From NCBI GenBank assembly GCA_965178125.1, contig OZ237761.1:620001-684000 (forward strand): DNA of 64,000 nucleotides, in the 5' to 3' direction. The stretch comes from Bilabrum cf. latius (taxonomy: Eukaryota). Below are positions 13,399 to 64,000 of the stretch, in pieces; the stretch's first letter is position 1, and the number at the start of each line of letters is the position of its first letter. Under the pieces are notes generated by a model. That model had not been told where the DNA came from, did no database searches, and was given only the letters and a program-made list of their open reading frames with translations. The translations under genes and the position numbers were made by a program.

Positions 13399-13406
13399 TT
13401 ATATAT

Positions 13407-22294: not shown

Positions 22295-22322
22295 TCTGTA
22301 TATACCTATAATAAATATATTT

Positions 22323-22339: not shown

Positions 22340-22792
22340 GCTCTATAACAATTTAAAAATAAAAGCGCGTTTGTTCCATTTGTGAAGGTATAAGCGAGGA
22401 TAAGGGGGTATAATGAAGGTAGTTTAGAAGGTTGAATAATGGAGTCCCATAAAGTGATGGAACTTTTGGCTAGAAAATGGCTAGAGTCCCATAACACCTT
22501 CACAAGAGGGCTACATCCACGTTTTGATTAGAACTTACTATAATATATACCCAAAGTATGGATATGGTCATCGTATAGAGTTTTATATATAATTGATTTT
22601 ATATAATTAGAAGGATAAAGCAGTTATATGAAGTAGCAGTATGAAGAGGATCACCTTGACTTTTGGAGCGACTAGCTCCAAAAGGAGTGGAACGGACTGA
22701 AGAGCTTTAGCTCTGATGGACTGGAACTATTGATGATGTTAATCATCCTTAACCGAAGGGAATAAATTTATTTATTACCGTAGCGGGGGGGG
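22340..22792. repeat. Probable right terminal (TIR) region of the virophage, containing copy C of the dispersed element (22449-22585)
   Basis: Non-coding AT-rich end before the host junction. The partner repeat is not in the window. Confidence 0.5.
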
Positions 22793-23217
22793 AGGCGGTC
22801 ATGAAGCCGCACCTCGCCGAGGAGGAGAGCGTCCTTCTCCCGCTAATGGAGAAGAACTTCAAGGCGGAGGAGTATGCCGAGATGGTAAGCAACCAGATCC
22901 TGCCTCGGATCCAGGACAAGAGCGCTTTCGAGCTGCCGTGGATGCTGACGAACCAGCCGCCCAAGTACACCAAGCCCTTTTTGGCCGAGCTCCCCGGGCC
23001 CGTGGGCTGCTTTCTGGGCTCCTGCTGGGCGCCATGGTATGCCAGACACGTGGAGCCGCTGCTGGTGTCTGTACTAGAGCAGGACGAGGGCCAGTCTCCT
23101 CACATGTTGGGCTGCGAGTGCTTGCCATGGCTCTGCTGCGGGATGCGCCGGCTGTGCTACTGCGCAACGCCAGAGGACATCGGGACCGGGCCGAAATGGT
23201 AGGAAAGAGTCATTTGA
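22792..23217 (+). pseudogene. 3' part of a host hemerythrin/HHE-domain gene, probably interrupted by the virophage
   Basis: EAVMKPHLAEEESVLLPLM (HxxEEE motif) begins right at the junction. Reads through TAG 23200 to TGA 23215. Confidence 0.65.
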
Positions 23218-23401
23218 GGGCGGGGTAGGGTATGCAGGCTACCTCAAGGCCGGCTTGCCATACAGTTCGTGTGTTGGGCTGAGTTGACCACGCACCGCAC
23301 AGCCAATTCGGAATTTCGGATAGGGCGTTCTCTGCATACTTCAAGTTATTGGGCTCGCAACACTTGGAAAATCGCAAGATTCTGAGAATTAATAATAAGC
23401 A

Positions 23402-26400
23402 ATGACTTTTCTGGTGCGGATACTTGAAGGTGATGCGAGGATTGCGAGTATTGTCTCCTCGTTCCTCGATTGGGTTTCTCACAACAGGCTTGAAAGCTGC
23501 AGCATGCGACTCTTTACCGTCTTGAACAGCGACAAATATGCATCGAATATGTTTAACTCTGCTAGCTAGCTCCTTCGGCCCATTGGAAGTGATGTGATGC
23601 CTGATTACCAACCAGCGCTACAAAATATTTGGGCTGGCCTTCAATACAAACTCGCGATCGGCACCATGGGGAGAAATGGAGATGCAGAAACACTCCTGCA
23701 TCAATTGTTTGCCTCAAACAACCCAGAACTATTGCGGACGGTCGTACCCATACTTTCATTGTGGCTCGTAGAGCTCCCCGAGACATACCAGGCAGCCGCG
23801 GACCGAGACGCCGGATATACTGTTACCCCTGCTATATACATAGCTGGGGCTATGCATGCCGTAGCAGGCTTCCATGCAGCGACAAGGGCGGATGGTGGCT
23901 GCCAGGATTGGATCGACTTGCAGTCCCATATCAGCGATCGGACGTCAGGAACGCGGCGCTTCGTGGCCGCGCAACTTGCTTCTGCAGCTTTTACTGACGA
24001 ATGCATTGGGAGAACGGCAGCCTAGCAGCCGGTTTCTGCGAGCAGCAGAAGCCCGGAGGACGGAGCCGTGGGTTGCGAGGCGCAAGGAGGGGCGCGACGA
24101 GTTGAACTTCTCGACAGCACTCCAGTAAGTAGCGGTGGGGCTGCGGCTGCAGCTGTGACTGGTGAACATGCTGGGTACTCCACGCCCACTGCTGGCTTGT
24201 CTTCTGCTTTGGATGTCGCCAGTGTACCCTGGAGGCCGCGTGTCACGGACACGCACGCAGTACGAGCCTTGCAGCAGAAGCTGAGATCCACAAACGAGAC
24301 TCCCGAATTCCACGTCGCGTGTCCCCCGGATCCGCACCGTTACCCGCTGTTGCGCGCACCTTCGCGTGGCCCCAGATGGGTCTCCCGAGCTAGCTGTGGC
24401 AAGCCTTCTCAGATTGCAGAGCCCACCGTCGCGGAGTCGCACCCATCTGTTGGGGCTGGGTGGCAATACCGGGCGGCGGTTGCGGTTGGTCCTGACCGGC
24501 CCTCGGCTCGTGCGAGCACCAAATGGTCAGGTCAGAAAGGCTCTCAAACTTGCACGATCCACGCCGGTGGACTTATAGTGCAGAGCTGGTGCAACTACTC
24601 GAGTACGTGTGCACCGGTGCCTCCACCGCAGTATGAACAGCTGCCGGTGCCTCCAGCGATGCCGCCGCTGGCGAAAGCAGCCGCAGTATGGACCATCCGC
24701 GCCACCTCCGCGCACGCAGTGAGCAATAACCTGCGCGAAGCGGTGCTTCTACATGAGAAAAGCAAGAAATGGGAACAGGAGGAGGAAGGCCGTGCATGGC
24801 TGGGGTGGCATCAGCGGTTCTGCAGCTTCGACGCTGGCCTCATTCTCACCGAGTGCTTCAGAGCCCTTGTGCCGTTCGGGCTGTGGATGTGGATAATCGT
24901 GAAGTTTTTCTTGACGGTAGCACCGGCTACCTGCGTTCAAGTGGTGGCTAGGTAGCACCTCAACAGCGCATAGAACGGGGTGCAGCACGGCGTGCTCAGT
25001 TTCCACGATGTGAACGGCACTACGGCCGCCAGAGCACTGCATGAAGGCGTCAGCACGTGCGACGTGACTCCTAGCATAATCGGGTGGGATGGGCACGTCA
25101 ACGATGCAATATAGGTACTGGACGTCATTCTCAGTCACAGGCTGGTCCCGTGCTTGGCTCCTTTGCTCGTAGTAGTTGCACTACAGTGCCTGGGCCCTTT
25201 GGCGTCGTCGTGCTTCATTCGGCGGTGCAACTGCCATCCTGATTACCGGCGCATCGAAGGGCTACAACGTATGGCGAAGCGATACCGAGACAACTGTTCA
25301 AGTCCTTATAGTGCAGTGCTGGTGCAACTCGAGAGAGAGCAGCAGGTTCTCGCAGCGGTGCAGATGTATCTCGGGCTGGCCTTCTGTACTCAATCAGTAA
25401 GCGAATCGTTCTCACATACCTACGATCGAAAGGTACCCAAAATAGGGGATTCTGAGGAGCTGTAGTATCGTTGCTTCCTTGGGCTCACCACTGCTGGCGG
25501 AATGACCATCGCCACGACTAGCATAGCGCTGGCTGCCGCTGGATTCGTCTGGGACGCATCGCAACACGCTCTAGGATCCTGGCAGCGTGCATTGGGAGTC
25601 TCGCTTGGCGTAGCTGGTCTATGCGCCTTCCTTGTCTGGGTATACTTGGTAGTTGGATAGACGCTTTACATGCACCACATTGCCTACAAGAAGACCAGAC
25701 CTGGAGCAGCTGCAAGTTAGGCGAGCTCAGGTCTGAGGAACGAACCGCTGCTGGACGTAGCTGACGGCACAAGCCCAATGTCGCCGGGAAACTGGACACC
25801 GTTCATACCTGCTAGGCATTGCGTGCTTCTTCCACCGCTGCTTGGCCCCGTGGTTGCACTGTGTGTGGCTGGCGGCTTGCTGCTTGCCGGGTCGTATGGC
25901 CTTGTCGAGCTGAGAGCTCTAACCGTGCTCGTCAATGCATCCATCGTGGCTGGGATGGTCGGACCATCTGCGTTTCTATTCGTCAGGGCAGTCATCATTT
26001 GGATGCTAGCTCATCACCCGGGCTGGTGGGCGTGGAAGTGCTGTCTCAACGAGGCAATGGCTGCTGTCGGCAGGGGCGACGTGAGACTGAGTAGTGACAT
26101 GAAAGATCCATGCTGCTGCTGCCGTTGCCGAAACAAGAGGTAGAAAGACTCAATTGGCAGTGGAACGTACGGTTCGCTAGCAAGTACGACTGCTGATCCA
26201 GCTTAGGACTATCATCGGTCGCTGCCTTTGCTCAGCCGAGATCCCGATGCTGATCTTTTTCTCAGGCCAGGAACCGGTGCTGAGGTAGGTGTAAATACGA
26301 TAAATCACATGTTTAATGCCTTACGTTTGCATGAATATGGCTGCCAGGAGCCCTACATTGAGATCTTCCTCGCTGCAGTGCTAGGAATCGGTGCTGCAGC

Positions 26401-27667
26401 CCTGTCAATTCCCTGGGTGGTTGAGATTGAACAGCCGATGACTGCAGCCCGACGGCTCGTCGGACTCTCAGCTCTTGTTTCACTACAGATCGTTTTATTT
26501 GCTGCGCAAGTAGCACCGTGTTGGACAACTGCGTTCTGCTATGGCCCGGAATGCAGTCTCTATGCTTGCTGTCTTCCGTGTAGCACACAATCGTGCCGGG
26601 CGAGGTGCTGCCCTCCGTATGGGCGTTCGGATACCGTGAAGGCTCGGTTCGATGCAGTCGCACTTGTGTTTCGCGGTCATTTAGGCGAACGATCAAAGCG
26701 TCATGAAGTTGACACGGGCGCCCTCCGCTGCGGCCCGAAGGATCGAGTGCAGGCCTAGCATCCGGTACTGTCAGTGTATTCTGCCCAGTCTTGCACACGA
26801 ATCGAACGGGTCATATGGGATGAGATCGAGCCGACAATATCGCTGCCTTACTATAGTCGTGGACTCCAACATTTGCGGAGTGTATTTGAGCCTCGGATGG
26901 AGGCAGGTCGGCACAGCCCATTGAGGCTGTACCCAGATGTTGCCAGGCGTTCAACGACGCAGCCCAGCATTGTGCTGGCTGGCCGTTCTCGGTCGCCATT
27001 GCCGGTACTGGAGCTGTAGCCCGGCTTGTCCAGTGCTGTGGCGCTTGCCTGTAAAGGCCTGTGGGCACATATTCGGTAGGCCGTAGAAGACGGTCCTCCA
27101 AGGCTGAAGGCCTAGGTGCTGCATGCAGCCGAGCTGTTGCACTGCAAGGCCGAGTACTTGCTATTTCGGCTACCTTTCCACAAATTTGAGCTTGAATCAT
27201 ACGCTTCAGACATGAATGGTCGGGATAAGGATCTAAAGCTTGCCGTTGCAACAGGCAGTGGCTGGAGCGACTCCGACTCCGACAGTAGCAGGTCAGATGA
27301 GGGGGAGCCAGGAGCTCGCCGGCTGCCGGAGCCATGGAAAACTCGTATGAGAGCAACTCGGCATGCGTTGCAGACGATTAGCTCTCTCGCACTGGTAGTC
27401 AGAAACTTATTCGAGGAGCGGAGAGATAGCCGTAGATCACAGGCTGCGATAGCCGTGGACAGGCCATTCCGTGGGATGGATCGATCGGACTTTGAGGAGG
27501 TGGATATAAAACTAACGCAAGCACAGTCAGTTGCAATAGCAATGCTATCTGGAGTAGCCTCTCCAGACGTTGAGCGTCGCCTAGGTGGCTTGGAGTAGGC
27601 GGGTGTGATCGATGCGCCGTATCGGTAGCTGTTCAGGAGCCGCCCGTAGCTGCCGTTATCATGTTGA
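23402..27667 (+). CDS. Host orphan multi-pass membrane protein (~1421 aa)
   Basis: Seven listed ORFs share one frame and all end in TAG. Gaps read open. ATG follows TAA-TAA-TAA; ends TGA. Several hydrophobic segments. Confidence 0.7.
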
Positions 27668-28028: not shown

Positions 28029-31000
28029 TCACCCTTTAGTATCCATACCCGGCTTGATCTCAGAGCTGCTTTTCTGGTCAATGGTCTTGGCCTCCTCCCA
28101 TATGCGCCCCAGAGCAGCCAGCCGGTCTCCTGGAGGAAATGCCGGTACCCTTGAATTGTCTCCGTCGGAGCACCTGCAGGCCAGGTCAGCTTCAAGCGCA
28201 ATCCGTCTGATCAAGGCCCCCAGCCTCCTCCTCCGCACCAGCACCGATGGCTGACCCAGTAGCTGTCCCGCTGCTGCCAACCTACCAAGTCCAAGAGGCA
28301 CAGACTGCGGTCCGGGCGATTGCTGCGAGTGACTGCTACCATCCCCATTCAAAGCTACTCTCCCACCCAGCTGATGCATTCCCATTCTTGAGGCATCCAG
28401 ACAGTCTTCGGACGGCGTGTACCCTGGTGGTGCGGCGTGCATTGCTAGGCACTCGTGCATGGACCGCGGCATGCCTTCGAGTACCATCCGCTGCAAAGGC
28501 TGTGGCAGGCCAGAGCCGCTGCCGAAGGGCCCAAATGTGGGCAGGTCTGCAAGAGTCAGCACAGTGACTCGGAACACCTCAAAATTGGAGGCCCGAACAC
28601 CGCCTTGTCGCGCGGTACTCTTGGTGCCCTTATCACTACCTTCATGTCTGGATCCTGCCCGGACTGCTTCGTCCAAAATATCTCTGCCGTGCCCGTCTCC
28701 CTCTAAATCGCCGTGGGCTGAGTTGAGCCGGCCCAGCAGACCACGTATGGGCTGCACCAGGATGAGCACCCTCGTGACGGCAGAGGCCAGTGCGTGCGCC
28801 GGGAACGAGGCACCAGGCCCGTCTAGGAGCACCACGCACACGTTGTCATTGCCCACGTGCCGCTGCACGTCCTGCACAGCGGCACGAGCGGGATCGAGGG
28901 TGCTGCTGCGTCGCGAAAATCCCGAGCCACTTGCAGCAGCAGCAGCAGCAGGGGCGGCGGTAACACCCTGTGATCCATCGGCCTGCCCGCCTGGTTGCTT
29001 CTTGAGCTTGGCCCGGGCAATCCACGGGCCCACGTGCACCACCATGTGCGTAAGGCTACTGTTGGCTCCGCTGGCGGCCGCTTGTCTCGACGACCAGGAC
29101 AGCACATCAAAGCCGCACTCGGGTTGCAGCCCAGCGCTGAACCCCTCCTTGCTCGGCTTGGAGGCATGACCAAGCCCCCGCGGACCCACAATGGCGTCAA
29201 ACCAGCCCGGCAGCAGCGTGTTAGTCAGAATACGCTGTGCACCAAGCCCGGACCGCTTGGTGACCGGACTTGCCCCGCCGCTGCCATCTGCGACGTCTGA
29301 TGCCACCAGCAAGCCAACGGTAACGGTAGCTGCTGCTCTCGCACGATCCAGACCACGCAGAGCTCGTTTGATCGAGCCAGGAACGGGGTCTAGGCTCAAT
29401 AGATTGATCCCATTCAGCGTCTCCGAGTGCTGCCTCGATTTTCTCTCGGAAGACTGCTCAGTAGCGGGCGGCGTATCGATGGATCGCAGAGGGACGGTGA
29501 GGGGACTGCTGCCGGGGGACTGCAACAGTTTCAGCACGCGCGGCGTATCTAGGTCCCCGCCGGGTCTAGCGTGTCCATCTAGGGCAAGCTGAGCGCCGAT
29601 GCCGCCGTCTGCCTTGCCCGCAGTGGCCATGCTAGCATCGGACCCGCTGCTGGCCCGAGCGATCTGAGCGCCAGGTGACAGCGGCTCTCTGCTGTCTCTC
29701 GATGGCTGCTCATGCAGAGCAGCCCCAGATAGAGACTTGGAACCCGAGCTCGCTGTTGTCTCGGTCCACGAAGCCGCCGCTACTCCCACGGCTCCTGCTT
29801 CTCCCGACAGCAATGGCCCCGGGTGAGTGGCTTTGCGGGGTGAAGCAGTGACATCAATCTCAGGTTTCGAATCGATGGCTCCCTAGTATGCTGGAGCAGT
29901 CTTTGAGAGGATCGATCGGCCGGGGTGGGCGCCCTGCTGCACTGCATGCTGTTCGCGCCCAACCAATGAGCCACTGTCTTCGCCTTCCTGCTGGGGACGA
30001 GGCGAGACCTGTTGTGACCTCGGCGTGATGAACTACTAGCTTTCAGATTCAGATTCAGATTCGGAGTCAGAGTCAGAGGTCCCGTCGGTTCTCCGTCCCG
30101 GGTGATGCACTCTTCCAATGCGACCCGAATGGGTGGAGTTACCCTCGTGAAATGACACTGCATCACCGTGCGGATCCCTCATGCTGTCCGGCGAAAGCAG
30201 CTGACCCGAATGGACGGACCCAGCGCCAGGCCCATGCGACTCTGGCAAGCCATCGAAGGCCACACCCTCTGACAGGATGGATGGCAGGGCATCCCCCACT
30301 CGACTGCTGCTGAAAGATGGACCGCCCACCATGTCTGCCTCGAGGCGATCGTCAAACGCAAGCCCAGATGTTCCTGGTACACTAGATCGCACCTGAAAAA
30401 GCCTCGAATCGGTCGAATTGCCCCCCGTCTATCTCATCCCCGAATTTCGCAAGACGAAAGGGCTCTGGCCGAACTCCGTCATCCGGTCGCTGTCGTCTGT
30501 CATCGCAGTCGAGGTGGCCCGGCTGGGATACCTCACAAGCTGGCTGGCTTGGGTGGGGTCGCCAGCAGCACCAAGTGGGCGCACCTCCGCTTCTCTTGTA
30601 GGCTGCAGCAGGCCTGGAATGCCCTCGATGTCGCTCTTGTTTTTCTAGGAGGCATTAGCCTCTATCTACCAGGACAGGCCGAGCTGAGTCTCGCCAGCCG
30701 CGTTGCCATTGTTGCCCCTCATGCTCTTGCCCATGTCGAGGAGCTTGCCCATGCCTCCGCTGCTTGTGCGCACAACCCCAAACCCACCCGCTGCATCGTC
30801 CTCGTCCCCAGTTTCAGAACCAGAATCGCCAAACGCTTGGAGTTGGCTACCGCCATGAATGGCCGCGACGTGAGCGGGGCTGCCAGGCGCGGCAGTCGCG
30901 AAGTCTACTGCGTGCAGATCGCTGGTTGCTGCGTCTCGTGGCGACTCAACTGGTGCGGTAACATTCGCATCGACAAGAAGTCCGCTTGATAACCCTGCCA

Positions 31001-37000: not shown

Positions 37001-37268
37001 GCTCAACTATACGCCGCGCCGGTCTAGACGACAGTCCTAAATGCATCTGGAATACCAGCCGAGGTAGGGTCCTTCGATTTGCTGCATGCATCGACCCATC
37101 TTCCTCAAACGACCCTCGACTAGACCGTTCGTCGCCATTCGAACTAGCCCTAGAAGATTTGCTTTGCGACGACGCTGACACAGACGATGCCGACGTATTT
37201 CTCTGTCGCCTCTTAATCGTGCTTTTCTAGGCTCCATGCAAAACTGGTGGTCGATCAGTGCACTCCAT
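28029..37268 (-). CDS. Tuberin (TSC2)/RalGAP-alpha-like protein with C-terminal Rap-GAP domain (~3000 aa)
   Basis: RHVGNDNVCVV Rap-GAP motif. Tuberin-like N-terminal segments (LRLWALRAVTRDG, YYVREQRAAVRIETL). More than 10 same-frame ORFs joined by TAG; ends TGA. Not every gap was read. Confidence 0.72.
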
Positions 37269-45000: not shown

Positions 45001-45723
45001 GGCTGGGACCGCACGCCCCAGGTGTGCGCGCTCGCCAAGATCCTGCTGGACCCCTACTACCGCAGCGTGCTCGGGTTCCGCACGCTCCTGGCGCAGGAGT
45101 GGCAGCAATTCGGGCACAAGCTGTCGGAGCGGTGCGGGCAGGGAACAGATAAGCCGCGGAAGGGCGTCTCGACGGACAGGGAAGTCTCGCCCATCCTGCT
45201 TCAGTTCCTTGATGCAGTGTACCAGCTGCAGTGCCTGTACCCCGACCGCTTCGAGTTCAACGATCTGCTGCTCGCAGCAGTGGCCGTGCACGCGTACTCT
45301 GGCAGGTTTGGTGACACGCTAGATCGCACGGAGGCCCTTCGAAGGAACAAGAGAGCGCACGATCGGGGAGCGGAGGCGTGCAGGTCAGGGGGCAGGGGAG
45401 CGTCATCTTCGTCCAGTGGCAGCAGGACCGACCGCGTGCCGAGCATGTGGCAGGCGGTGCTGGAGGATCCGGAACCGTTTTTAAACCCGAGATACGAGTT
45501 CAGGGTGCTGGCGGGCGCGGGCGATGCCCCTACTGGCGGGGGCAGTGCAGGCGCGCCGGCGGCGGTGAGTGCCCGAGTGGGCGTGCGGTACTTGGAGCAG
45601 TCAGCGATGCTAGCCGCGGAATTCGCTAGGCAGTCCACTCTGCAGGCCGCCGAGCTATCGCTTGACCGCAGCAAGGCCGTATCGCTGCGCGTCTGGCCGC
45701 TGTGGCTGGCGCTGTGGACTTGA
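39001..45723 (+). CDS. Myotubularin-family phosphoinositide phosphatase (start uncertain)
   Basis: WRVSRVN..Y.VSESYP, LLRSAQP, DLR...NA, GGGTE, NMHAVR, HCSSGWDRTPQV and LLDPYYRS..GF. Same-frame ORFs joined by TAG; ends TGA. Confidence 0.85.
39817..39936 (+). repeat. (GCTGGT)20 coding microsatellite, poly(Ala-Gly)
   Basis: Perfect hexamer array inside the myotubularin ORF. Confidence 0.95.
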
Positions 45724-53528: not shown

Positions 53529-53766
53529 TTGACGGAGATTCGATTGATGAACGAACTCTGCTTGCGGAACCGGAACCATATCCCGAGCGGCGCCACGAGA
53601 TCCCGGACATTTGCACAAGGTTAGGCCAATACTAGCCTAGTGCGCCGCAAAAATCTTCGCAAAACAGTTGTTTAATAGATATCACCAAAGCATAGCAAGA
53701 AAATGGTTGCAATTGACCGGTGAAGATGACCGGCCCATGGCACCAGGAAGCCAAGATACTTACCCG

Positions 53767-54801
53767 TCACAGAAGCAATTCATCTTCTTCATTGGAATCC
53801 TCTGAAGGAAGGCCCATACCGTGTGGATGACGCCGAGGACCGTGTATTCCGGGGATTAGGTCACTCGTCGGGGGTGGCTAGCCGAACGAGCCTGGTTCGC
53901 CTGCATCGTCAGGTCCAGTATCTTGACTGTGCGATTGCCGACTTGGAGGCATGCCTTGTTCGCTCTGTCGACGAGCTGCACCACTTTCCTCTGCGGTCTA
54001 GTCACTGCCTGCAGCCCCGGACCCCGGATGCATGGCTGGTGGAGGTGCCGGAGCGCTCGCGTGCGTGGTCTAGGTGGCCTCCTACTCATCGGAGGTGTGC
54101 CCTCTCGCGGCGATGATGCCACCTCGTAGACCACGAGCTGGCCCGGCTACGCCTCCGGCGGTCGCCGCTCTCAGTTGACGCACGAGTGGGTTGTCCCGAC
54201 CAAAATGGACCGGCCGCATACCGGGAGTCCAAGAGAGCGCTGGCAGCAGCACCGCATGGATTCGCTGAAGGTCGACCGTCGCCTGGAGAGCGAGCACAGT
54301 CAGGTGGCGACCAGCAGCACCGTTGAACTGGGCGACCTCGAGGGCAGCCCCGGTGAGCCCTGCCGTCCGGGGCAGACGGGGAGGCTTCGCAAGACGCTCT
54401 TGGAAGCCGAGCACGAACTTGGGGATGCCCTTCATTAGGGCGTTGAAGTCTGGTGCGGTACCGCCAGGCAAGAGATGTATGAGGTCAGCCATGCCCAGCG
54501 AGCGGAGAAGTGGGGTGTAGACGCCTGCGCCGTCCCATCCGGCGACTCGTCGGACCCTGCGAAGCCCTGCACCCCGAATCACTGCCGAGATCCGCTGTTC
54601 AATGTTTTGTGCCATAGCGACAGGTTCGGCCGCGCTACTCGACCATTCCCGAGGCCAGCTCGGAAGTGCTGCTGCCACTTTTTCCACCGCAAACAGCATA
54701 TGAGTAGCGATTGGTAGCTTGTCCAACGATAGCGCTTCGAACGACGACAGCATCTTCCGGGCAGACTGCACGCCAAAGCATGCTGCAGCCACCGCATCCA
54801 C
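53767..54801 (-). CDS. Host hypothetical protein (probable last exon)
   Basis: 239-aa ORF extends through TAGs to TGA 53767. No recognisable domain. Confidence 0.4.
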
Positions 54802-56177
54802 TGCGATAATTAAAGGTAATACATAGAAAGCTAACGGTTGCCAACCCCTCTCAAGATAGGTACCCTACGGGGACACGGTCTCACTGAGTGGAGGTTGGTC
54901 CGCCGATCGCACAGCTAGGATGCTGGCATCGAACTCTGAGGCTGTCCAGCGCTACTCCTCGCCATTGTGGTACTCTAAAAAGAATTCATTTGAAACAAAT
55001 TCTAGTTTTGCTAATGCCGTAGTCGAATGCGCAGCCACTGCGGCGTGATCAGGCATTGTGGAGAGTTGGGAGCCACTGTCCTAGGCCTACAGTTCAAGTG
55101 GGCCTTGAGGGGCCCCAGACCCAGATGCAGGGCCAACTCCGCCTTCTTCCTAAGCTTCTGCGCGCACATTGATTGAATTTGGCAGTTTCCCGTGAAATTA
55201 ATCGCTGTCTGCACGGAAAGTGATAGCATACCGCATGGTAGTTTCCTAAAAGCTGCAAGCCGCAATTCTTACTTGCTGTACCATCTTCTGGCAAAATTAT
55301 GGAGCCATGGTGATCAGTACTAGAGTTCTGATCATGAGTTCCATCCTAGGGCCCCTCTTGACTTCCCCGTTCCTTAGGATCAGGCCTAGCGACCGCACCT
55401 TCGCCAGAGTGTCGATTTTGTCGGACGTCTTTGGCCTAAATTGCAGCAACCCAACAGCAAGCTGCCGCGATTGCAGTAAGTTTAAAGGTCTGCATGAGTT
55501 GAGGTATACTTGGTTTGTGATTTGCTTTGTTTCGTGCTATCCCTGGCTTGAGAAAACTCGGTGGATCCTTGCCGAATAGCGCGGCGCCAAGCGGCGGCAC
55601 CGTGGTCGCATTTCTCGGATCAAACACCACGGTCCTAAATCATGGCAGCAATGCCCCTTCTGGATTGGACCCGCCATTGATCCAGGTGGAGCGTGATTCT
55701 TCGCAAGGAGTCTGGATGGAGGCGCCTTCAAGCTACGAAGAAGTCATTGATCCCAGCAAATCCCGGTGGTCGTCTTGTTTGGTTCGCATTGCGACTCAAA
55801 GCATGCGAGTGAAGTCCCCGATCCCGCTTGGCTTGTTGTAGCCCGGCAACGAAGAACTGCTGGCAGAAGCAGCCGTGGCTGGAGCCGAACTGGACCGAAA
55901 GCTGTGCGATCCGAAATCGGTAAGTCGGACCTCCCATGTTGTAGAAGGCGGCAGTATCGCCATGCGATGGTTTCTCTACTGGTGTTTTTCCATTGGTGTT
56001 GATCGCAGTCAGATGGAGTCTGTGCATCGCTGCTAGGCGTGTGCTTGCTTACCCGTGGGAGTCCAGCAGCGTTCGAAACGTTGCTGTTCTACAAGAGCGT
56101 CCACGCCAATCCAGCATTTGCAGACGTAAGGGCGGATAGAATGCCTTGCGGAGCTTGTAGTATGGTTTTGCCCATGA

Positions 56178-57490: not shown

Positions 57491-57733
57491 ACGATCACGA
57501 ACTGAACAGCCTTCGCAACAGCCTCATGATCACGAACTGAACAGCCTTCGCAACAGCCTCATGATCACGAACTGAACAGCCTTCGCAACAGCCTCATGAT
57601 CACGAACTGAACAGCCTTCGCAACAGCCTCATGATCACGAACTGAACAGCCTTCGCAACAGCCTCATGATCACGAACTGAACAGCCTTCGCAACAGCCTC
57701 ATGATCACGAACTGAACAGCCTTCGCAACAGCC
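57491..57733. repeat. 35-bp minisatellite, ~7 copies (ATGATCACGAACTGAACAGCCTTCGCAACAGCCTC)
   Basis: Head-to-tail near-identical units with no spacers. Confidence 0.95.
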
Positions 57734-60700
57734 CAACGCCGCGGGCTGCATCGCGCGACTGGGCGTCCGACTGCCCACCGCTTGCTGCTCCACCCCCCGT
57801 CTCCTACCCCTGCGCCTATTCGCCGCTCTGCACAGCAAGTGGACCGCTCGTCAAGCCGCTCACACCACTGCCGCCGCCCATGCGAGGCATGGCCGATGCT
57901 CTTCGCCGCGGCCTGCGGTGGGGCCCTGCCCCACCCTGACCCTTTCGGGCAGCAGCAGCGGATGCAGGAACAGCGGCAGCAGCCTGCGAGGCCCCAGCTG
58001 AGGGCCCCGACACATGGGCGGGGGGGGAGGGCCCAGCAGTAGCAGATCGCAGAAGCAGCATGCGCCCGATTTCGCCCACGTCCGTTAGCTGCGGGTGGGG
58101 ACCGGCACCGTCGTCGTCAACCTGCGGGCTCCCCCCTGCTTTGCTGCGGCCATGCTCAGGCTTGGGCCCTGGCTCCCCGACGCGACGACTGCTGCTCCAG
58201 CTGCTATCTGTTCGAAATACCACGGGCGGTGGCCTCTCCTTCCCATCCATGCTCGTGCTTGTGCCTGGGGCATCACCGACACCATGCCCAGGCTTGGGTC
58301 GAGTTCCACAGGAAGCTGAACCTGCATCGGCAGGAGCCTCGCTGCTGGCGAGCCACCTACTCGTTACACCATCTGAACCCGCATCAGCCGATCCGCCTGC
58401 GCTTGTTCCCCCGGCCTTGCTCGCCAGGCTGTCCCTCCCCATCAGCTGTCGACTATGGAGCTGCTCCTCCTTCTCCTGCCCTGTCGCCCCCCCCGCCGCG
58501 CCCTTCCTCACCCCGCTTGTCCCCGTCGGTTCCTTCACCTCCGCCCTCGCAATCGACTCGCTACCCGCCTGCAAGCGGCTCAGGGGGTAGCCCGACCGAA
58601 AATCCCGAGAATTACCCCCGACTCCGCCTCCGTCCGGCTTTCTGTCCCTCACCCCCGGCACGTCTCCACCAGCTCCTGCGCCGGCATCCAGCCCCCCGCC
58701 GGACCTGGATCGCTTAAACTTCTTTACGAGCAGCACCTTCGCGATCGCCACGCTCCAGATGTCCTTCCGGGCCGTATAGGCAGAGGCCACGTCCCGCGTG
58801 GAAGTGGACAGCCGCCGCAGGTCGTTCAAGTCAGGCATGTCTCCGGAACTGCCCGCCCCCGAGAACACGCTCCTCCTGCTCGATGCAAGCCGAAGCTCCC
58901 GCTCGGACTGCTTGGATGAGTGCAGCAGGTACCGACCGCTGTTGCTGAAGAATCCCCTCTGACCCGCGCGAGGGAGGGCCACGCTGCGGCCTCTTCGGCG
59001 ACCAGCGGCCGCCGTCCCAGGGCTGCGATGAGCAGCAGGAGACCGCATGGGAGTCCCTGATCCAGCTCCTGCTCCTGCGCCTTCTCCTTCCCACACACCA
59101 GGACCCTGCGAGCCGTCGCTGCTAGTGCGTGACATCGACCCCCCACCACCACTGTTGAGGCGGGCGGAAGGCCGTACCATGCCCGCGGGATCGGTCATGC
59201 GCCGGCCGTACGCTGCCAAGAACGAGGGAGGGAGGTCGCTGCTGTCCACTGCTGGTCTGGAGGGACCGAGCGACGGAGAGTGTGACGAGTGCATCGAGCC
59301 CCCTTGCGTCGGTGGCAGCCCGTCCCGCGTTGACCCCTGGTTGCGCACGGCCTTGTGATTACGGATCATGCCCGCGCGCGCCTTCGCCGCGAAACTGATG
59401 GCTTGCGCCCCGTCGCCTGCCGCAGGCGCTCTGGACACTCCTTCTCCTGTCTTCTCTCCTGTCTTTTCTCCTGCATCGCCACTCGGACCGGCATTGGCAC
59501 TGCTAGCAGGAGTCCCACCAGCACCCTTGCTGCTGCTGCTGCTGCTGCTGCTATTGCTGCCGGCCGGTACGAGCCCGCGCCTGGAGCTGGCGGCGAGCAG
59601 GGCTTGTTCTGCCTCGCTCTCGGCCTGTCTCGCCCGACGCAGCTCCTCCGCGTCCTCCTTCTCTTGCCTCGCCTGCTGCAGCATCGCCTCGCTGACGCCC
59701 TCGTCCTCCTCCCCGGCGACCTTCTCGTTCTCGTCTTCGTCTTCGTCCAGCCCTTCATCGATCGTGTCGCCCACACGCACCGCGTCTGCGTCCTCATCTT
59801 CGCCGCCGTCTTCACCATTGCCCACCTGGTCCAGATACAGCCAGGCGTGCTCGTGCAGCTGATCTGCAGTCATCCTCTTGTCCGGGTCCACCTCAAGGAG
59901 GCCCCGAAGCAGCTCGAGAAACTCGTCGGACAGGCCCTTAGCCGGCAGCCTGCCCCAGTCGATCTTCCCCGTCGCGACCGCGTCTCCCAGCGCAGTGGGA
60001 TCTCCTTTCTTCGGCTCGGATCCGGGGATGGGCAGCTGCCCGCGTCTTGAGGCCAGCAGGAACAGCACCACACCAAGCGACCACATGTCGGCGGCTCGCA
60101 ACGAGTAGCCCGGTGGGGGTCCCGTTCGGACGGGTGCGATGCTGGGCGCTAGACTTGGCGAGGGGGTCGCTGCCAGGCCTGGCTCTAGCACGCTTGATGC
60201 GCCGGCCTTGCTTCGCCTCTGGAGAAATGGAGGAGGGACTTGGGGCGGATCGGCAGTCGCTGGTGCCGGTGCTGGCTGAGCCGGCCTCTGTGCTCGTTTT
60301 GTGAGAAACGGCGGGCGCGGGGCCGGAGCAGTCGCAGACACCGGCGAAGCTGCACTCGGGCTTATAGCCGAGGGGGGCTGCTTTCCTCCTTTGCGGGAGA
60401 GGAATGGAGGCCTCCCTCCCATGAATGGCGGGGGGTTCGGGGAGGGACCGGAACTGCTGCTGCTGCCGCTGGAGGCCGATGCTGCCGCGTCAGTCGCTTT
60501 TCCGGCCGCCCCTGGGCCTATTCCTCCTCCTCCTCCTTTTCTTCTCATGGCCCCCAGCATCGGCGGGATGCCCGGCGGGGCTGATCCCTCCGATGGCAGC
60601 TCGGGCTGCGGCCGCCCGTAGTTCGGCCGGTAGCATTCCGGGGGCAAAAAAGCCGGCGTACCCTCCGTGCTCTTGGTGAAGTCGGCCCACTTCTCGTCGG

Positions 60701-61946
60701 ACAAGAGGACTTTAGCCACCCCCAGGTCGATCACCTTGGCCCAGGGTTCGCCCTGGGGCACCTGCTCCGAGAGGGGGGCAGACAGGAGGATGTTCTCCGG
60801 CTTGATATCCCTTGAGCAAATGCCCACCGAGTGTAGGTACCACAGGGCGTCGCCAACGTCGTGGGCCACGCGCCTGATTTCTGGCTCCGAGTAGAGGCCC
60901 TGCTCTGCCGGATCTTCTTCTTCGTCATTATCGGTCCTGCCGCTCGTCCCTGCCGCCCTTGCGCCCGCGCCTGCTTCCTCCCCCTGCAGCTGTGCAGGGC
61001 TCGGTGACCTGCTTCCCCTGTGGGCGCCGCGGCTGCTCGCGCCGGATCCAGCCGACTAGGCAACGCTGCCGGGCTCAGTGGCAGTGCGCATGGGGCTTTC
61101 ATTCGATGTCCACATGCCCGTGGTCATCTGGCCAGCGGTCGGTGAGCGCAGCCCTGCCCTCCTTCGGTATCGCTTGCGCCTGTCGTCCCAGACCAGCAGA
61201 GGCCCGCCCTTGAGGAGCTCCATGACGGCGTGGATCTTATCGCCTTTCTCCTTGTCGATCAGCTCGTAGCAAAGGCAGATCGCCGGGTGCTGGGTGACCC
61301 CTTTGAGGACTGCCAGCTCGACCCTGAGCTTGTCCAGGCCAGAGACTACCTTGAGACCCCCGCCGCCAGGAGACCCGTCGTCCTCTCTCTGGTACTGCTT
61401 GCGCTTCGCCAGCTTCGTCTTGGAGAACTGCTTAACGGCTACTTCCATGCCATTTCGCACGTGTACTGCGCGGAAAACCTTCGCGTAGCCTCCCTCTCCA
61501 ATCTGTTCAATCAATTGCCACTCGTTGACCTTGGGCATCCTGACTCGATCCAAGCGGGAAACGCCCTTTAGCGCCGATGCAACTTGCTGAGAGCTTGTAG
61601 ACTCGTGTTGTCGGCTGGATTCTTCTTCATCGTGCTCTTCTCCTTGACTTGCCATGCGGACGAGCTGCTGCTTGCGAGGCTTGAAGTTGGTTTTGTCCAG
61701 AAGCGCAGAGTGCGCTTCTCCATCAAGCAGCAGAGACGCCTTTTTAGTGAGAACCAATGAGTTACGTCCCGGTTTTAGGATTCGTTTCGATTGGAATGTT
61801 GCAGCGGTCTGCTTGGAGTCTAGCTGGGGTCGTTGCGCTTCGTTAGCTTCGCCCGAGCTGCTCCCTGGTCCATCTGGCCGCGTCTCATCCGCAGTCTCAT
61901 CTCTCGCGGCATCATTCTGCTGCTCGTCTTGGTCTTCTCTCTCCAT
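57705..61946 (-). CDS. CaMKK-like Ser/Thr protein kinase with large low-complexity inserts
   Basis: IGEGGYAKV, VAVK, SRDIKPEN, DLG, GTPAFLPPE and DMWSLGV. The two halves join via TAG 61056. Ends TGA 57705. Confidence 0.85.
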
Positions 61947-62088
61947 AGAAATAATCCAAAGAACCACTGCGTTTAAGGCGATTGATACGTGGTCTGAAGG
62001 AGCGCCTGCCACTGCCATGATGACGATCAGACCCAAAGATTCGATCCGCTGACCAAAGTTTCGCTCAATAGCGAGAACGCTTTGTACT

Positions 62089-63561
62089 ATGAATAATCTT
62101 GGCTGTGGACTTGTGCCATCGATCGCGCTGTGCGTGGTTTTGGCTCTTTGTTAGACAGGGAGGTGCAAGTACGCTACAACTGCAACAGAGCCTCCGCTGC
62201 TGGTCGACAACAACACCAAGGCGATTATAGCACCCAATGTTCCACCGATACCTATCGGACTGTGGGCGATGACGCACGTGTCCCTTCCTGCAGAGGATAA
62301 GCACGGCAAGAACTTGCCGCTGCTCAACCTCACAGAGGCTCGCAAGATGATTCGCAACGACTACATCGTTGGCGTGTCCGTAGAATTCAGCCTGTATGAC
62401 GTGTGGCCAGACCAAAATAAACCCCCGAGCATGGATCGCGTGGCACAGCACATGCAGGTAATCGACGAGGCCTGCGAGGCCGAGGGCAAGGCTCGCGGCT
62501 GCCTGCCTTTCTTCCTCAAGCCCTTCCTGTCCAACCTCCCCACGTGGATGGGCACCGTGCCCCCTCTCTCCATGGGCCGCAACCAGGTGGGCATGCGGGT
62601 GCTCGGCGCTCCCACGTCGTGGCAAGGTGTCATGACGAACGCGACGGTTCCACTGTCCTGCGACCCCGCCTGGCACTCCATCCTGGATCGGGTGCTGGAC
62701 GCGATCGACGCGTGGCTCGGGGAACAAGACGCGCGAGTCACCCGCGTGCCCATTGTGCATTTCCTGGGCCCACTCATGACCTCGCTGCAGATGAGGCCAG
62801 GCCCACAGCCCCTGTTCGACTACCTCAGCGCCGCACCGGGCGTCAACGATACGCTGGGCTGGGGCTGGAACAAGGAGTGCCACATCGACGCGTGGGTGCA
62901 GAGGGCCCGCCGGTTCGGGGACGCGAGCCGCTGGCCGCACGTGGGCAAGCGGGCCTGGGCCTTCGACTTCACCGTGCTGCCGGCCAAGTCCAACAACGCG
63001 TCGTTCGTGTTCTTCGACACGGCAGACCAGACCAGGCCCCTGGATGCGCTCGAATAGTCGCACCCGCTTGGACCCGGGGCAGTGCTCGCAAAGACAGAGT
63101 CGCTTCACGTGAACCTGGACTTCAACCACACCCACAGCACGTGCAGCGCCATCCCGCCCGCCAACGATTCCGGATCCCACGCCAGCTTCCAGGAGGCCTA
63201 CATGGACGAGCCCCTGGGCGTGCCCTACCAGTTCATTGGCAACCGCACGTGGAGGCACGGCTGGGAGGATTTCTCCCCCATCGCCATGCCAGCCCTGCCC
63301 GGCAACCGCACGGCGGTGCCCTCCATGTACCCCCTCGCGGTTCTAGGGAACAACTCGCTCTACCGGGACATCGGGCCGGGGCTCATCGACCCGGTTGTTC
63401 CCCAGGGAACACTGTGGGCGGAGGTATGGCAGTGGGAGGCAGCCGACCCGTGGGGGGCCCCTGCCTGCGTGAGCGGGGACGCCCTTGCAGCCGGCATGCG
63501 GGAGTGGAACCGGCGGCTGAGAGAGGAGTACGTTGCATCTGTGCGAGCCGCCGCGCTTTGA
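62089..63561 (+). CDS. Secreted protein (490 aa), possibly glycoside-hydrolase-like
   Basis: Signal-peptide-like N-terminus appears only with TAG readthrough. Two listed ORFs join at TAG 63055. Ends TGA. Function is a guess. Confidence 0.6.
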
Positions 63562-64000
63562 GGTTTTCATCTCGCACCGGAGCGCGATGGCGCTGGGGCA
63601 TCATGCCGCTGCAGGCCGGCCGCTGGCATGCTGTCCACGTGCCTCGGTACACAGGTGGGGGTCGATTCAAGTCAGGGTCTTGGCGAGCTTCGCGCTGGGA
63701 GGGGCGAGCACGGTCTTCCATGCCTTGCGGCTGGCTTCGATGGCGCGATCGTGGTCGCCCTCCGCGCTCGCCAGCATGGCGAGCGCCTGCTCGGCCCACC
63801 CGTGCGCTCCTCGCCGCATGGCCCGGTCCATGCCGTAGGACTACAGGCAGTGCAGGCTGCAATCGAGCTTGCCAACTCTTGTCACCAGTGCGGAGGCTCC
63901 GCGAACCAAGGGTGCCCCAGTGGCCTCGCAACGGACCAGCGCAATCTGCGTGATGGGGCAGTAGTGCATAATGGCAAGCAAGCGGCAGGCGGCCGCTGCA

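What the first reader, a model, noticed from the sequence alone, without database searches (positions are those of the whole stretch)
22792..64000. Host nuclear genetic code with UAG=Gln while UAA and UGA remain stops
Seen: nearly every host gene is split into same-frame ORFs separated only by TAG and ends at TGA. This includes essential Pol alpha, where AALVTS[TAG]GREILQST lies between catalytic motifs B and C. Gln is assigned from the virophage genes and is compatible with the Pol alpha site. Known: eukaryotic reassignments usually move UAA and UAG together; uncoupled UAG=Gln is rare (e.g. the fornicate Iotanema spirale). Inference: an independent, possibly undescribed code change in a Cafeteria-like protist, predicting a tRNA-Gln(CUA) and an altered eRF1 elsewhere in the genome.
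Basis: partly seen in the sequence, partly recalled or inferred. Interest (0 to 1): 0.95.

Follow-up and report, generated by a model that had tools for sequence, protein, structure and literature searches.

The report
Protist that reads TAG as glutamine
A Cafeteria-related single-celled eukaryote, together with the virophage and retrotransposon lodged in its genome, appears to read the stop codon TAG as glutamine while keeping TAA and TGA as stops, a rare code variant that the literature searched here does not report for this branch of life.

Summary
Across eight host reading frames plus a retrotransposon frame (13,188 codons), the coding frame holds 80 TAG, 0 TAA and 0 TGA. The two other frames hold 177 TAG, 85 TAA and 403 TGA. 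Reading TAG as sense raises the longest open frames from about 1,000 to 3,083, 2,265, 1,981 and 1,696 codons. Reading TAA or TGA as sense does not.

Spliced transcript contigs from another study carry the TAGs of DNA polymerase alpha, a myotubularin gene and a third gene unchanged. This argues against editing, introns, pseudogenes and assembly error.

The evidence for glutamine comes from the integrated virophage:
- Three integrase TAGs fall in columns that are Q in 11-13 of 14 distant homologues.
- The only TAG of a repeat protein sits at the Q of FNQPL, where seven of the eight other repeats use CAA.
- A column-likelihood test recovered 61 of 61 sense codons and assigns TAG to Q.

TAA ends 12 of 16 virophage genes. 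Host-side evidence for Gln is thin: one informative site, K/Q/M. The tRNA-Gln(CUA) and eRF1 could not be examined because no genome is held. This code variant is known in a fornicate and in ciliates. My searches found no stramenopile case.

The parts
48073..53528 (+). DNA polymerase alpha catalytic subunit. Exons 48073-48156, 48246-48347 and 48471-53528. In-frame TAG at 48139, 51573, 52257, 52875 and 53478; stop TGA at 53526-53528.
   Evidence: Pfam PF00136 2.2e-119, PF08996, PF03104. PDB Pol alpha 4.4e-202. A spliced contig of run X5 covers 48246-48347 plus 48471-53506 with 0 other letters. Splicing restores the conserved FVVDDDGLGY N-terminal motif.
51573..51575 (+). TAG codon, aa 1042 of the 48450 frame, between polymerase motifs B and C.
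   Evidence: Sequence read directly. The column in 120 homologues is K 37, Q 37, M 36, T 5, L 5.
39052..45723 (+). Myotubularin-related phosphatase gene, 2223 codons, 8 in-frame TAG, stop TGA.
   Evidence: PF06602 3.9e-81. MTMR2 structures 1.3e-43. X5 contig covers 40000-44058 plus 44126-45787 with 0 other letters. X5 and X6 contigs both end at 45787, 64 nt past the TGA.
28029..37268 (-). Tuberin (TSC2)-like gene, 3079 codons, 24 in-frame TAG, stop TGA.
   Evidence: PF11864 4.1e-07; Rap_GAP at 22 bits is below its cut-off of 27. Human tuberin 2e-09 over aa 544-697.
57705..62018 (-). Protein kinase gene, 1437 codons, 3 in-frame TAG, stop TGA.
   Evidence: PF00069 4e-36; TAG positions.
23402..27667 (+). 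Long open frame without a family match, 1421 codons, 17 in-frame TAG, stop TGA.
53661..55700 (-). Spliced host gene with introns at 54801-54884 and 55158-55272. The last exon carries TAG at aa 325, 329, 353 and 393 of frame 53767-55056; stop TGA at 53767-53769.
   Evidence: CT..AC joints in X5 and X6. Contigs of both runs end at 53661/53663, about 105 nt past the TGA, with 0 other letters. The frame stays open across the joints.
8631..22780 (.). Integrated AT-rich virophage; the main body continues at 1-1979 beyond the retroelement. 16 ORFs, 62 in-frame TAG, stops TAA x12 and TGA x4.
   Evidence: GC 0.28-0.41. Penton PF21507 5.3e-07, weak MCP PF22031 match, integrase PF00665 8.8e-12. 55 MCP relatives. 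Codon counts.
18670..19827 (-). Virophage rve-type integrase with chromodomain, 7 in-frame TAG. Those at 19666-19668, 19384-19386 and 18955-18957 lie in conserved Q columns.
   Evidence: Alignment A1. In 14 distant homologues: aa 54 Q 12, aa 148 Q 11, aa 291 Q 13. Coordinates.
21194..22294 (-). Virophage DUF285 repeat protein. Its only TAG (21620-21622) sits at the Q of the FNQPL repeat motif.
   Evidence: PF03382 2e-128. The other 8 repeats use CAA x7 and GAA x1 at that position.
9572..11461 (-). Virophage major capsid protein, 629 codons, 10 in-frame TAG, stop TAA.
1980..8630 (-). Ngaro-like (DIRS-order) retrotransposon inserted in the virophage. One 1979-codon frame (2676-8615) with 14 in-frame TAG; split direct repeats.
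   Evidence: GC 0.61. RVT_3 8.1e-06. Repeats 8453-8630 = 2134-2311 and 2312-2441 = 1980-2109, both 100% identical.

Best explanation
The host is a bicosoecid-related stramenopile whose nuclear code reads UAG as glutamine and keeps UAA and UGA as terminators (formally NCBI table 15). Its resident mobile elements, an integrated virophage and an Ngaro-like retrotransposon, are written in the same code.

Shown:
- TAG is an ordinary in-frame codon in host, retroelement and virophage genes.
- The TAGs are present in spliced mRNA.
- TAA and TGA are excluded from coding frames and end the genes.
- In virophage genes, TAG falls where homologues and internal repeats have Gln.

Inferred:
- Host genes also receive Gln at TAG. 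This follows because the virophage has no ribosomes of its own and must use the cell's translation system.
- Decoding is by a tRNA-Gln with anticodon CUA. This is the only anticodon that reads UAG but not UAA (argument in PMC5304391).
- The eRF1 has lost or weakened recognition of UAG.
For: 1. Frame-specific stop counts over 13,188 codons: frame 0 TAG 80 / TAA 0 / TGA 0, against 177 / 85 / 403 in the two other frames.
2. Only TAG-as-sense lengthens the open frames, from 1079 to 3083 codons. The lengthened frames are real genes: Pol alpha, myotubularin, kinase and tuberin-like.
3. Contigs of runs X5 and X6 (a study other than the probable source sample) carry GT..AG or CT..AC joints of 84-132 nt that are absent from run X1. 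Depth in X5 ranges from about 8 to 239 across bins, against an almost flat 16-32 in 29 of 30 bins of X1. These contigs cover the Pol alpha, myotubularin and 53661-54800 TAGs with 0 other letters. Splicing restores the conserved Pol alpha N-terminus.
4. Gln: integrase TAG 54, 148 and 291 align to Q in 12, 11 and 13 of 14 distant homologues. The DUF285 TAG sits at the Q of FNQPL, with 7 of the 8 other repeats using CAA.
5. A column log-likelihood over MCP, integrase and Pol alpha alignments recovered the true residue for 61 of 61 sense codons. It gives TAG (16 sites) Q = 9.2 against K = -4.9 next. CAA scored 10.2 on 19 sites. Subsamples of 16 sites recovered the right residue in 170-200 of 200 draws.
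6. In the AT-rich virophage TAG (62) far outnumbers CAG (8) beside CAA (136), as expected if TAG is a Gln codon favoured by AT pressure.
7. TAA is a stop: it ends 12 of 16 virophage ORFs. The MCP and integrase ends coincide with the ends of P0121, P0176 and P0177. If TAA:TAG followed CAA:CAG, about 24 in-frame TAA would be expected in host frames; 0 are seen.
8. Sequence after late TAGs is conserved: the MCP tail after aa 615 in P0121, and the integrase after aa 339 in P0177 at 74% identity.
Against: - Host-side residue evidence is one site (Pol alpha 1042: K/Q/M equally). The other Pol alpha TAGs (aa 1270, 1476, 1677, and the exon-1 TAG) lie in inserts or variable columns. No myotubularin or tuberin-like TAG lies in a segment aligned to solved structures.
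- MCP sites alone do not discriminate (T 1.6, Q 0.5), so the Gln call rests on four strongly conserved sites.
- The near-identical database proteins with Q at TAG positions (P0121 at 5 of 6 sites, P0176 at 7 of 7, P0177 at 6 of 7) may have been translated by a caller that reads TAG as Q. Their DNA could not be seen, so I do not count them as independent.
- The absence of in-frame TAA/TGA is partly by construction, because the frames were delimited by those codons.
- In 3 of 9 frames the last TAG lies within 5-32 codons of the TGA (P = 0.035-0.065 each; Fisher combined 0.076), so occasional use of TAG as a stop is not excluded.
- No tRNA gene lies in the window, and neither eRF1 nor the rest of the genome is available.
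- Giant viruses may carry tRNA genes (recalled, not from any call). If so, the virophage could in principle be tuned to a virus-supplied suppressor rather than to the host.
Confidence: 0.85

Rival explanations
1. TAG is a sense codon but encodes another amino acid in the host (Lys, Glu, Leu, Ser or Tyr, as in other UAG reassignments), or is decoded differently for host and virophage genes.
For: The one informative host site is K 37 / Q 37 / M 36. MCP sites alone slightly favour T (1.6 against Q 0.5). UAG-only reassignments to Leu, Ser and Glu exist (PMC11687900, passages).
Against: The combined score is Q 9.2 against K -4.9, T -6.9 and L -18.5. Three integrase columns and the FNQPL repeat are nearly invariant Q. 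One cell has one cytoplasmic translation system. TAG replaces CAG in the AT-rich element (62 against 8).
Confidence: 0.05
2. Ambiguous code: TAG is Gln inside genes but also terminates some genes near the 3' end, as the reassigned stop codons do in Condylostoma, karyorelict ciliates and Blastocrithidia.
For: In Pol alpha, the kinase and frame 23402-27667 the last TAG lies 15, 32 and 5 codons before the TGA (P = 0.035, 0.065, 0.058). The distances fit a chance downstream TGA.
Against: The combined P over 9 frames is 0.076. The Pol alpha tail beyond TAG 1677 ends in an acidic stretch, VV and an aromatic residue, like the tails of its three closest relatives (by eye, not aligned by MAFFT). Virophage MCP and integrase sequence is conserved past late TAGs. 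None of the 16 virophage ORFs needs TAG as a stop.
Confidence: 0.07
3. The TAGs are not translated. They would be pseudogene lesions, assembly errors, unrecognised introns, or sites edited to CAG in RNA.
For: Endogenous viral elements often show spurious stop codons from assembly (PMC10120064 and PMC8547959, passages). Logan contigs can hide minority edited forms.
Against: Only TAG interrupts the frames, never TAA or TGA. An essential single-copy-type gene (Pol alpha) is affected. Contigs from four runs of three studies agree at the TAG codons; over the 19.9 kb laid only one substitution and one 1-base gap were listed, neither at a TAG. Spliced transcript contigs keep TAG with 0 other letters and show no joint around the TAGs.
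Confidence: 0.02
4. Both UAA and UAG are glutamine (NCBI table 6), as in most UAR reassignments.
For: Coupled reassignment is by far the commoner pattern (PMC5304391 and PMC11687900, passages). TAA is rare in GC-rich DNA, so its absence could be overlooked.
Against: TAA ends 12 of 16 virophage ORFs in DNA where TAA is the commonest stop triplet, yet none lies in frame. There are 0 in-frame TAA in 13,188 host codons against about 24 expected and 85 in the other frames. Reading TAA as sense lengthens nothing.
Confidence: 0.01

Closest known systems
UAG-only reassignment to glutamine (NCBI table 15 pattern) in the fornicate Iotanema spirale, the ciliate Protocruzia tuzeti and two phyllopharyngean ciliate lineages (PMC5304391; PMC11687900, passages read)
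   Same: UAG is sense and aligns with Gln, while UAA and UGA are kept as terminators. The predicted mechanism is the same: a tRNA-Gln(CUA) plus an eRF1 with weakened UAG recognition.
   Different: The host here is a stramenopile close to Cafeteria, a supergroup lineage for which my searches found no nuclear stop-codon reassignment. The evidence comes from genomic DNA with resident mobile elements, not from a whole transcriptome. The tRNA and eRF1 have not been seen.
Endogenous mavirus-like virophages with Ngaro retrotransposon insertions in Cafeteria burkhardae (PMC8547959, passages read)
   Same: An AT-rich virophage sits in a GC-rich bicosoecid-type genome and is interrupted by a GC-rich element of about 6.6 kb with the split direct repeats A1-[ORFs]-B1A2B2.
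   Different: Cafeteria's Pol alpha (P0008) is on record as one uninterrupted 1,683-residue protein; that Cafeteria uses the standard code is my recollection. Here both the virophage (62 TAG) and the retroelement (14 TAG) use TAG as sense. The MCP is only about 30% identical to its best full-length relatives. Host GC is 0.62. Host GC of about 0.70 in C. burkhardae is my recollection, not from a call.
Endogenous viral elements of Streblomastix strix that share the host's non-standard code (PMC10120064, passage read)
   Same: Integrated polinton-like or virophage-type elements are written in the host's deviant code, which suggests a long association between virus and host.
   Different: In Streblomastix both TAA and TAG encode Gln. 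Here only TAG does.

Membership tests
Nuclear code with UAG = Gln and UAA/UGA = stop (NCBI table 15 pattern) | In-frame UAG in conserved, expressed protein-coding genes | tested here: met
   80 in-frame TAG in 13,188 codons. Pol alpha, myotubularin, kinase and tuberin-like genes are identified. The TAGs are present in spliced transcript contigs.
Nuclear code with UAG = Gln and UAA/UGA = stop (NCBI table 15 pattern) | UAG positions correspond to glutamine in homologues | tested here: met
   Met for virophage genes: Q in 11-13 of 14 homologues at three integrase sites; the FNQPL repeat; likelihood Q 9.2 against K -4.9 with 61 of 61 control codons correct. For host genes alone it is inconclusive: one site, K/Q/M.
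Nuclear code with UAG = Gln and UAA/UGA = stop (NCBI table 15 pattern) | UAA retained as a terminator | tested here: met
   12 of 16 virophage ORFs end in TAA at homologous C-termini. 0 in-frame TAA in host frames against about 24 expected. No host gene in the window ends in TAA, so direct host evidence is negative only.
Nuclear code with UAG = Gln and UAA/UGA = stop (NCBI table 15 pattern) | UGA retained as a terminator | tested here: met
   9 of 9 long frames end in TGA. 0 in-frame TGA against 403 in the other frames. Transcript contigs of two runs from one study end 64 nt and about 105 nt past the TGA of two genes, which is only a weak hint.
Nuclear code with UAG = Gln and UAA/UGA = stop (NCBI table 15 pattern) | A tRNA-Gln with anticodon CUA | not testable with these tools
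   No tRNA gene in the window, no Rfam match, and no genome held.
Nuclear code with UAG = Gln and UAA/UGA = stop (NCBI table 15 pattern) | eRF1 N-domain altered at the stop-codon recognition motifs (GTS, NIKS, YxCxxxF) | not testable with these tools
   eRF1 is not in the window and no genome is held.
UAR = Gln code (NCBI table 6) | UAA also used as a sense (Gln) codon | tested here: not met
   no in-frame TAA, and TAA is the main virophage terminator.
Ambiguous stop/sense codes (Condylostoma, karyorelicts, Blastocrithidia) | The reassigned codon also terminates genes, depending on position | tested here: inconclusive
   Late TAGs in 3 of 9 frames; combined P = 0.076. Conservation past late TAGs argues against this.
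Virophage (integrated, mavirus-like lifestyle) | Double jelly-roll MCP, penton, packaging ATPase and cysteine protease module plus an integrase | tested here: inconclusive
   Penton PF21507 5.3e-07 is above its cut-off. MCP PF22031 at 17 bits is below its cut-off, but 55 MCP-length relatives were found. rve integrase 8.8e-12. The ORFs I call ATPase and protease had no family match; those names rest on gene order and a Walker-A-like motif read by eye.
Ngaro (DIRS-order) retrotransposon | Split direct repeats A1-[ORFs]-B1A2B2; RT/RNase H; tyrosine recombinase | tested here: inconclusive
   The repeat architecture is met exactly. Only the RNase H-like RVT_3 domain was detected, at 8.1e-06. The tyrosine recombinase was not looked for specifically.

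The most novel reading that the evidence does not exclude
This is an independent, so far undescribed origin of the UAG-only-to-Gln code in stramenopiles, arising after the split from Cafeteria. A whole nested parasite community (virophage, its retrotransposon and, by implication, the giant virus the virophage depends on) has followed the host into the new code. The code change would then act as a host-range barrier: a virophage with 62 in-frame TAGs cannot express its capsid in a standard-code cell, and incoming standard-code viruses whose genes end in TAG would be read through. The system could also be a tractable free-living model for how UAG and UAA become uncoupled.
Probability: 0.5. Interest if true: 0.8.

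Novelty: new member of a known kind. Interest (0 to 1): 0.72.

Why it matters
UAA and UAG almost always change meaning together. The few lineages that uncouple them are the natural experiments for how eRF1 can tell the two codons apart and how a tRNA(CUA) becomes fixed.

A case in a bicosoecid-type stramenopile would add an independent origin in a new supergroup lineage. Its closest named relative in the Pol alpha search is Cafeteria, which I recall uses the standard code and is culturable. That would allow a close comparison of eRF1, tRNA-Gln and glutaminyl-tRNA synthetase.

There is also a practical side. Standard-code gene callers will shatter this organism's genes. Under the standard code the window's Pol alpha falls into separate open frames, and no near-identical full-length copy was listed among its homologues.

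Finally, the virophage and retrotransposon share the host's code. This links genetic-code change to virus-host specificity in the giant virus, virophage and protist system.

Tried and rejected
- No whole genome is held for the window. Genome-wide codon inference and searches for tRNA, eRF1 and 18S were therefore impossible.
- ARAGORN found 0 tRNA genes and Rfam gave 0 matches in the window.
- Exact window words were absent from metagenome contigs and viral contigs.
- MCP relatives were not found in viral contigs, in the phage collection by tblastn, or via P0123. The integrase alignment A1 matched patterns, but none was confirmed. The MCP alignment A2 was too poorly conserved to search with.
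So I cannot say whether their Q residues are CAA/CAG codons or TAG translated as Q. I left them out of the likelihood test.
- The look-up of sequencing runs: no RNA holder is listed. Whether X5 and X6 are RNA rests only on the spliced joints and uneven depth seen.
I laid the part beside it, as the tool suggested.
- Structures of myotubularin and tuberin gave no aligned TAG site. The Pol alpha exon-1 TAG lies in a variable column: R 14, A 4, Q 3 of 42.
- My attempt to model the spliced gene at 55,700-57,400 gave an open frame but no identification.
- The search of earlier findings returned nothing in three look-ups.
- Literature searches found no report of a nuclear UAG reassignment in a stramenopile or bicosoecid. 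The library lacks most subscription journals and supplements were closed, so a published description may exist.
- A Halocafeteria virophage preprint describes a host of 47% GC and does not mention the genetic code (passages). It is not this organism.
Full report
**Layout of the window.** Base composition splits the window into four parts:
- AT-rich DNA (GC 0.28-0.41) at 1-1,979.
- A GC-rich block (0.61) at 1,980-8,630.
- AT-rich DNA again at 8,631 to about 22,780.
- GC-rich DNA (about 0.62) from about 22,800 to 64,000.

The AT-rich parts are an integrated virophage. The evidence is a penton protein (PF21507, 5.3e-07), a capsid protein with a weak PF22031 match but 55 capsid-length relatives in a 1.8-billion-protein library, and an rve integrase with a chromodomain. 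The GC-rich block inside it has the split direct repeats of an Ngaro/DIRS element. On the minus strand it reads A1 (8453-8630), one 1,979-codon frame, B1 (2312-2441), A2 (2134-2311), B2 (1980-2109), with both repeat pairs 100% identical. It also has an RNase H-like domain. This nested arrangement mirrors the one described for Cafeteria burkhardae (PMC8547959, passages read). The rest of the window is host DNA.

Under the standard code the host region shows no frame longer than 1,079 codons. Reading TAG as sense gives stop-to-stop frames of 3083, 2265, 1981, 1696, 1481 and 1422 codons. Reading TAA or TGA as sense gives essentially no gain.

The lengthened frames are recognisable genes:
- DNA polymerase alpha (PF00136 2.2e-119; solved Pol alpha chains 4.4e-202).
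- A myotubularin-related phosphatase (3.9e-81).
- A protein kinase (4e-36).
- A tuberin-like protein (PF11864 4.1e-07; human tuberin 2e-09).

Four of the nine long frames have no family match.

The cleanest statistic is frame-specific. Over nine frames and 13,188 codons, the reading frame has 80 TAG, 0 TAA and 0 TGA. The +1 and +2 frames have 98/36/182 and 79/49/221. TAG is therefore no rarer in frame than out of frame, whereas the other two stop triplets are excluded from the coding frame only. Chance, pseudogenes or sequencing error would not spare TAA and TGA.

All nine frames end in TGA. I give this little weight, because TGA outnumbers TAA by 934 to 227 in this DNA.

**The TAGs are in mature mRNA.** Of 12 public runs listed as holding part of the Pol alpha region, five hold half or more of its sampled words. 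Four of the 12 were laid on 40,000-59,900.

Run X1 probably comes from the source sample. It gives collinear contigs at a nearly flat depth of about 21.

Runs X5 and X6 come from another study. Their depth varies: X5 ranges from about 8 to 239 across bins. Their contigs skip 84-132 nt segments bounded by GT..AG on the strand of the gene: 47302>47435, 48156>48246, 48347>48471, 54800>54885, 55157>55273, 55918>56008 and 56125>56220. X1 shows none of these joints. These contigs are therefore transcript-derived, although neither run is on record as RNA.

- One X5 contig of 5,227 nt covers 48246-48347 plus 48471-53506 with no differing letter. It includes all four TAGs of the main Pol alpha exon.
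- The exon joins place the real start at ATG 48073 and restore the conserved N-terminal domain. The ...FVVDD|DGLGY... motif spans the second joint. They also add a fifth in-frame TAG at 48139.
- Another X5 contig covers all eight myotubularin TAGs without a difference.
- Contigs of both runs cover four TAGs in the last exon of the minus-strand gene at 53661-54800.
- Contigs of both runs stop 64 nt and about 105 nt beyond the TGA of two genes, where the DNA run continues. This is only a weak hint, since both runs belong to one study.

Editing to CAG, hidden introns and assembly error are thus very unlikely, although contigs cannot exclude a minority edited form.

**Which amino acid.** Host genes say little. 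Of five Pol alpha TAGs, only aa 1042 lies in a conserved column, and that column is K 37, Q 37, M 36 of 120. The others sit in inserts or variable columns. No myotubularin or tuberin-like TAG falls in a segment aligned to solved structures.

The virophage is more informative: 62 in-frame TAGs in 16 ORFs.
- **Integrase.** In an alignment with 14 homologues of about 31-45% identity in their best local alignments, from several sources, TAG 54 aligns with Q in 12, TAG 148 with Q in 11 and TAG 291 with Q in 13. The other four sites are variable.
- **DUF285 repeat protein.** Its only TAG sits at the Q of the FNQPL motif. Seven of the eight other repeats use CAA there and one uses GAA. This test needs nothing outside the window.
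- **Likelihood test.** I ran a small Codetta-style test on the MCP, integrase and Pol alpha alignments. For every codon I summed log-odds of each residue over the aligned columns. It recovered the correct residue for 61 of 61 sense codons. For TAG (16 sites with at least half of the homologue rows holding a residue) it gave Q 9.2, K -4.9, T -6.9. This is close to the score of the bona fide Gln codon CAA (10.2 on 19 sites). Random subsamples of 16 sites of twelve control codons gave the right residue in 170-200 of 200 draws.
- **Codon usage.** Usage agrees with Gln. In the AT-rich element CAA 136, TAG 62 and CAG 8. In host frames CAG 377, CAA 112 and TAG 80.

Three database proteins nearly identical to the window's have Q at most TAG positions. 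P0121 (97%) has Q at 5 of 6 positions, P0176 (98% by alignment A1; 99% by BLASTP) at 7 of 7, and P0177 (74% by A1; 75% by BLASTP) at 6 of 7. I could not see their DNA, and a code-aware gene caller could have written those Qs. I therefore excluded them from the test and do not count them as independent evidence.

**TAA and TGA remain stops.** TAA ends 12 and TGA 4 of the 16 virophage ORFs. The MCP and integrase termini coincide with those of their homologues. In host frames no TAA occurs in frame, whereas about 24 would be expected if TAA:TAG followed CAA:CAG. This rules out the common UAR = Gln code.

**A residual doubt: does TAG also terminate some genes?** In Pol alpha, the kinase and frame 23402-27667 the last TAG lies 15, 32 and 5 codons before the TGA. 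Each is individually unlikely (0.035-0.065), but the combined P over nine frames is 0.076. Three points argue against dual use:
- The Pol alpha tail beyond TAG 1677 resembles the tails of its three closest relatives: an acidic stretch, then VV, then a terminal aromatic residue. I judged this by eye.
- The MCP tail after TAG 615 is conserved in P0121.
- The integrase is conserved for 46 residues after TAG 339 in P0177.

**Who is the host.** The Pol alpha catalytic region finds stramenopile proteins. The best named hit is Cafeteria roenbergensis. In a FastTree of 121 sequences on 903 trimmed columns, the query groups with that protein and two unnamed metagenome proteins (support 0.988). This group sits inside a clade of 17 otherwise unnamed or transcriptome-only sequences (0.999). 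Identity to all of them is only about 53%. 'Cafeteria-like' is therefore fair at the level of order or class, not genus. The Cafeteria protein was predicted as one uninterrupted 1,683-residue product, so the code change would post-date that split. This is inference.

**Mechanism.** Shown: TAG is translated; in virophage genes it stands where Gln is expected; TAA and TGA terminate. Inferred from the established logic of decoding (laid out in PMC5304391, passages read):
- Only an anticodon CUA reads UAG without reading UAA, so a tRNA-Gln(CUA) is predicted, most simply derived from tRNA-Gln(CUG).
- eRF1 should have lost affinity for a G at the third stop-codon position.
- The glutaminyl-tRNA synthetase must accept the changed anticodon.

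None of these could be examined, because the window holds no tRNA gene and no genome is available. The virophage depends on the cell's ribosomes, so its 62 TAGs imply that it replicates in this code. The same is expected of its helper giant virus, which is also inference.

**Comparison with what is known, and novelty.** UAG-only reassignment to Gln has been reported in Iotanema spirale, Protocruzia tuzeti and twice in phyllopharyngean ciliates. UAG-only changes to Leu, Ser and Glu are also known (PMC11687900 Discussion and PMC5304391, passages read). Integrated viral elements that share a host's deviant code are known from Streblomastix (PMC10120064, passage read).

The kind is therefore known. 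What appears new is the lineage, plus the three-layer nesting of host, virophage and retrotransposon all using the code. Eight full-text searches found no nuclear stop-codon reassignment in a stramenopile or bicosoecid. The library is incomplete, supplements were closed, and the public runs date from 2025. A description may therefore exist or be in preparation.

**Verdict.** I put about 0.97 on TAG being a sense codon in this organism, about 0.85 on the full statement (Gln, with TAA and TGA as stops), and about 0.5 on it being undescribed. It is a new member of a known kind, of clear interest to people who study genetic-code evolution and protist viruses.

Noticed in passing
window 1980-8630: A GC-rich Ngaro-like retrotransposon is inserted in the virophage. 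Its split direct repeats are 100% identical (178 nt: 8453-8630 = 2134-2311; 130 nt: 2312-2441 = 1980-2109), which suggests a recent insertion. With TAG as sense, its Gag-like, RT/RNase H and C-terminal parts form one 1,979-codon frame. No tyrosine recombinase domain was looked for.
   Followed up: partly
window 47303-47434, 48157-48245, 48348-48470, 54801-54884, 55158-55272, 55919-56007, 56126-56219: The host has short spliceosomal introns of 84-132 nt with GT..AG ends, seen as joints in contigs of runs X5 and X6. Long intron-free stretches of more than 5 kb also occur, in Pol alpha exon 3 and in the myotubularin gene.
   Followed up: partly
window 48073-48470: The apparent Pol alpha start at 48450 lies in an intron. 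The real start is ATG 48073, with two 5' introns, and exon 1 carries a further in-frame TAG at 48139. Run X5 reads G instead of C at 48098, 31 nt from a contig end.
   Followed up: yes
window 53478, 57804-57818, 27601-27652: In-frame TAGs cluster within 5-32 codons of the terminal TGA in Pol alpha, the kinase and frame 23402-27667 (combined P over nine frames 0.076). This could reflect relaxed constraint at C-termini, or occasional use of TAG as a stop.
   Followed up: partly
window 8631-22780 and 1-1979: In the virophage CAG is almost absent (8) while TAG (62) and CAA (136) carry the presumed Gln load. TAG never ends an ORF.
   Followed up: yes
window 1617-1750 / 12692-12826; 12706-12786 / 22529-22609; 1795-1840 / 22424-22469: AT-rich segments of 45-88 nt recur in the virophage in inverted or direct orientation at 73-85% identity. 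They may be shared intergenic promoter or terminator elements, or remnants of terminal repeats. The left end of the virophage lies outside the window.
   Followed up: no
proteins P0121 (ENA contig 12,842 bp) and P0176 (ENA contig 8,405 bp): Public metagenome assemblies hold virophage capsid and integrase proteins 97-99% identical to the window's. P0121 starts at the first Met after the position of the window's TAG 295. The same virophage lineage therefore occurs in environmental data.
   Followed up: partly
window 56600-57263: In the DNA run X1, depth rises from about 21 to 97, and many contigs with loose ends meet at 56630-56690. This is a short sequence repeated elsewhere in the host genome, inside or next to a well-expressed spliced gene (56241-57254, ends in TGA).
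   Followed up: no
window 39815-39939: A perfect (GCN GGN)-type simple repeat encodes about 40 Ala-Gly dipeptides inside the myotubularin gene. It blocked read laying.
   Followed up: no
window 21363-22171: There are eight or nine tandem 75-nt (25-residue) DUF285 repeats in a virophage gene (PF03382, 2e-128). This family is named after Mycoplasma proteins and is an unusual cargo for a virophage.
   Followed up: partly
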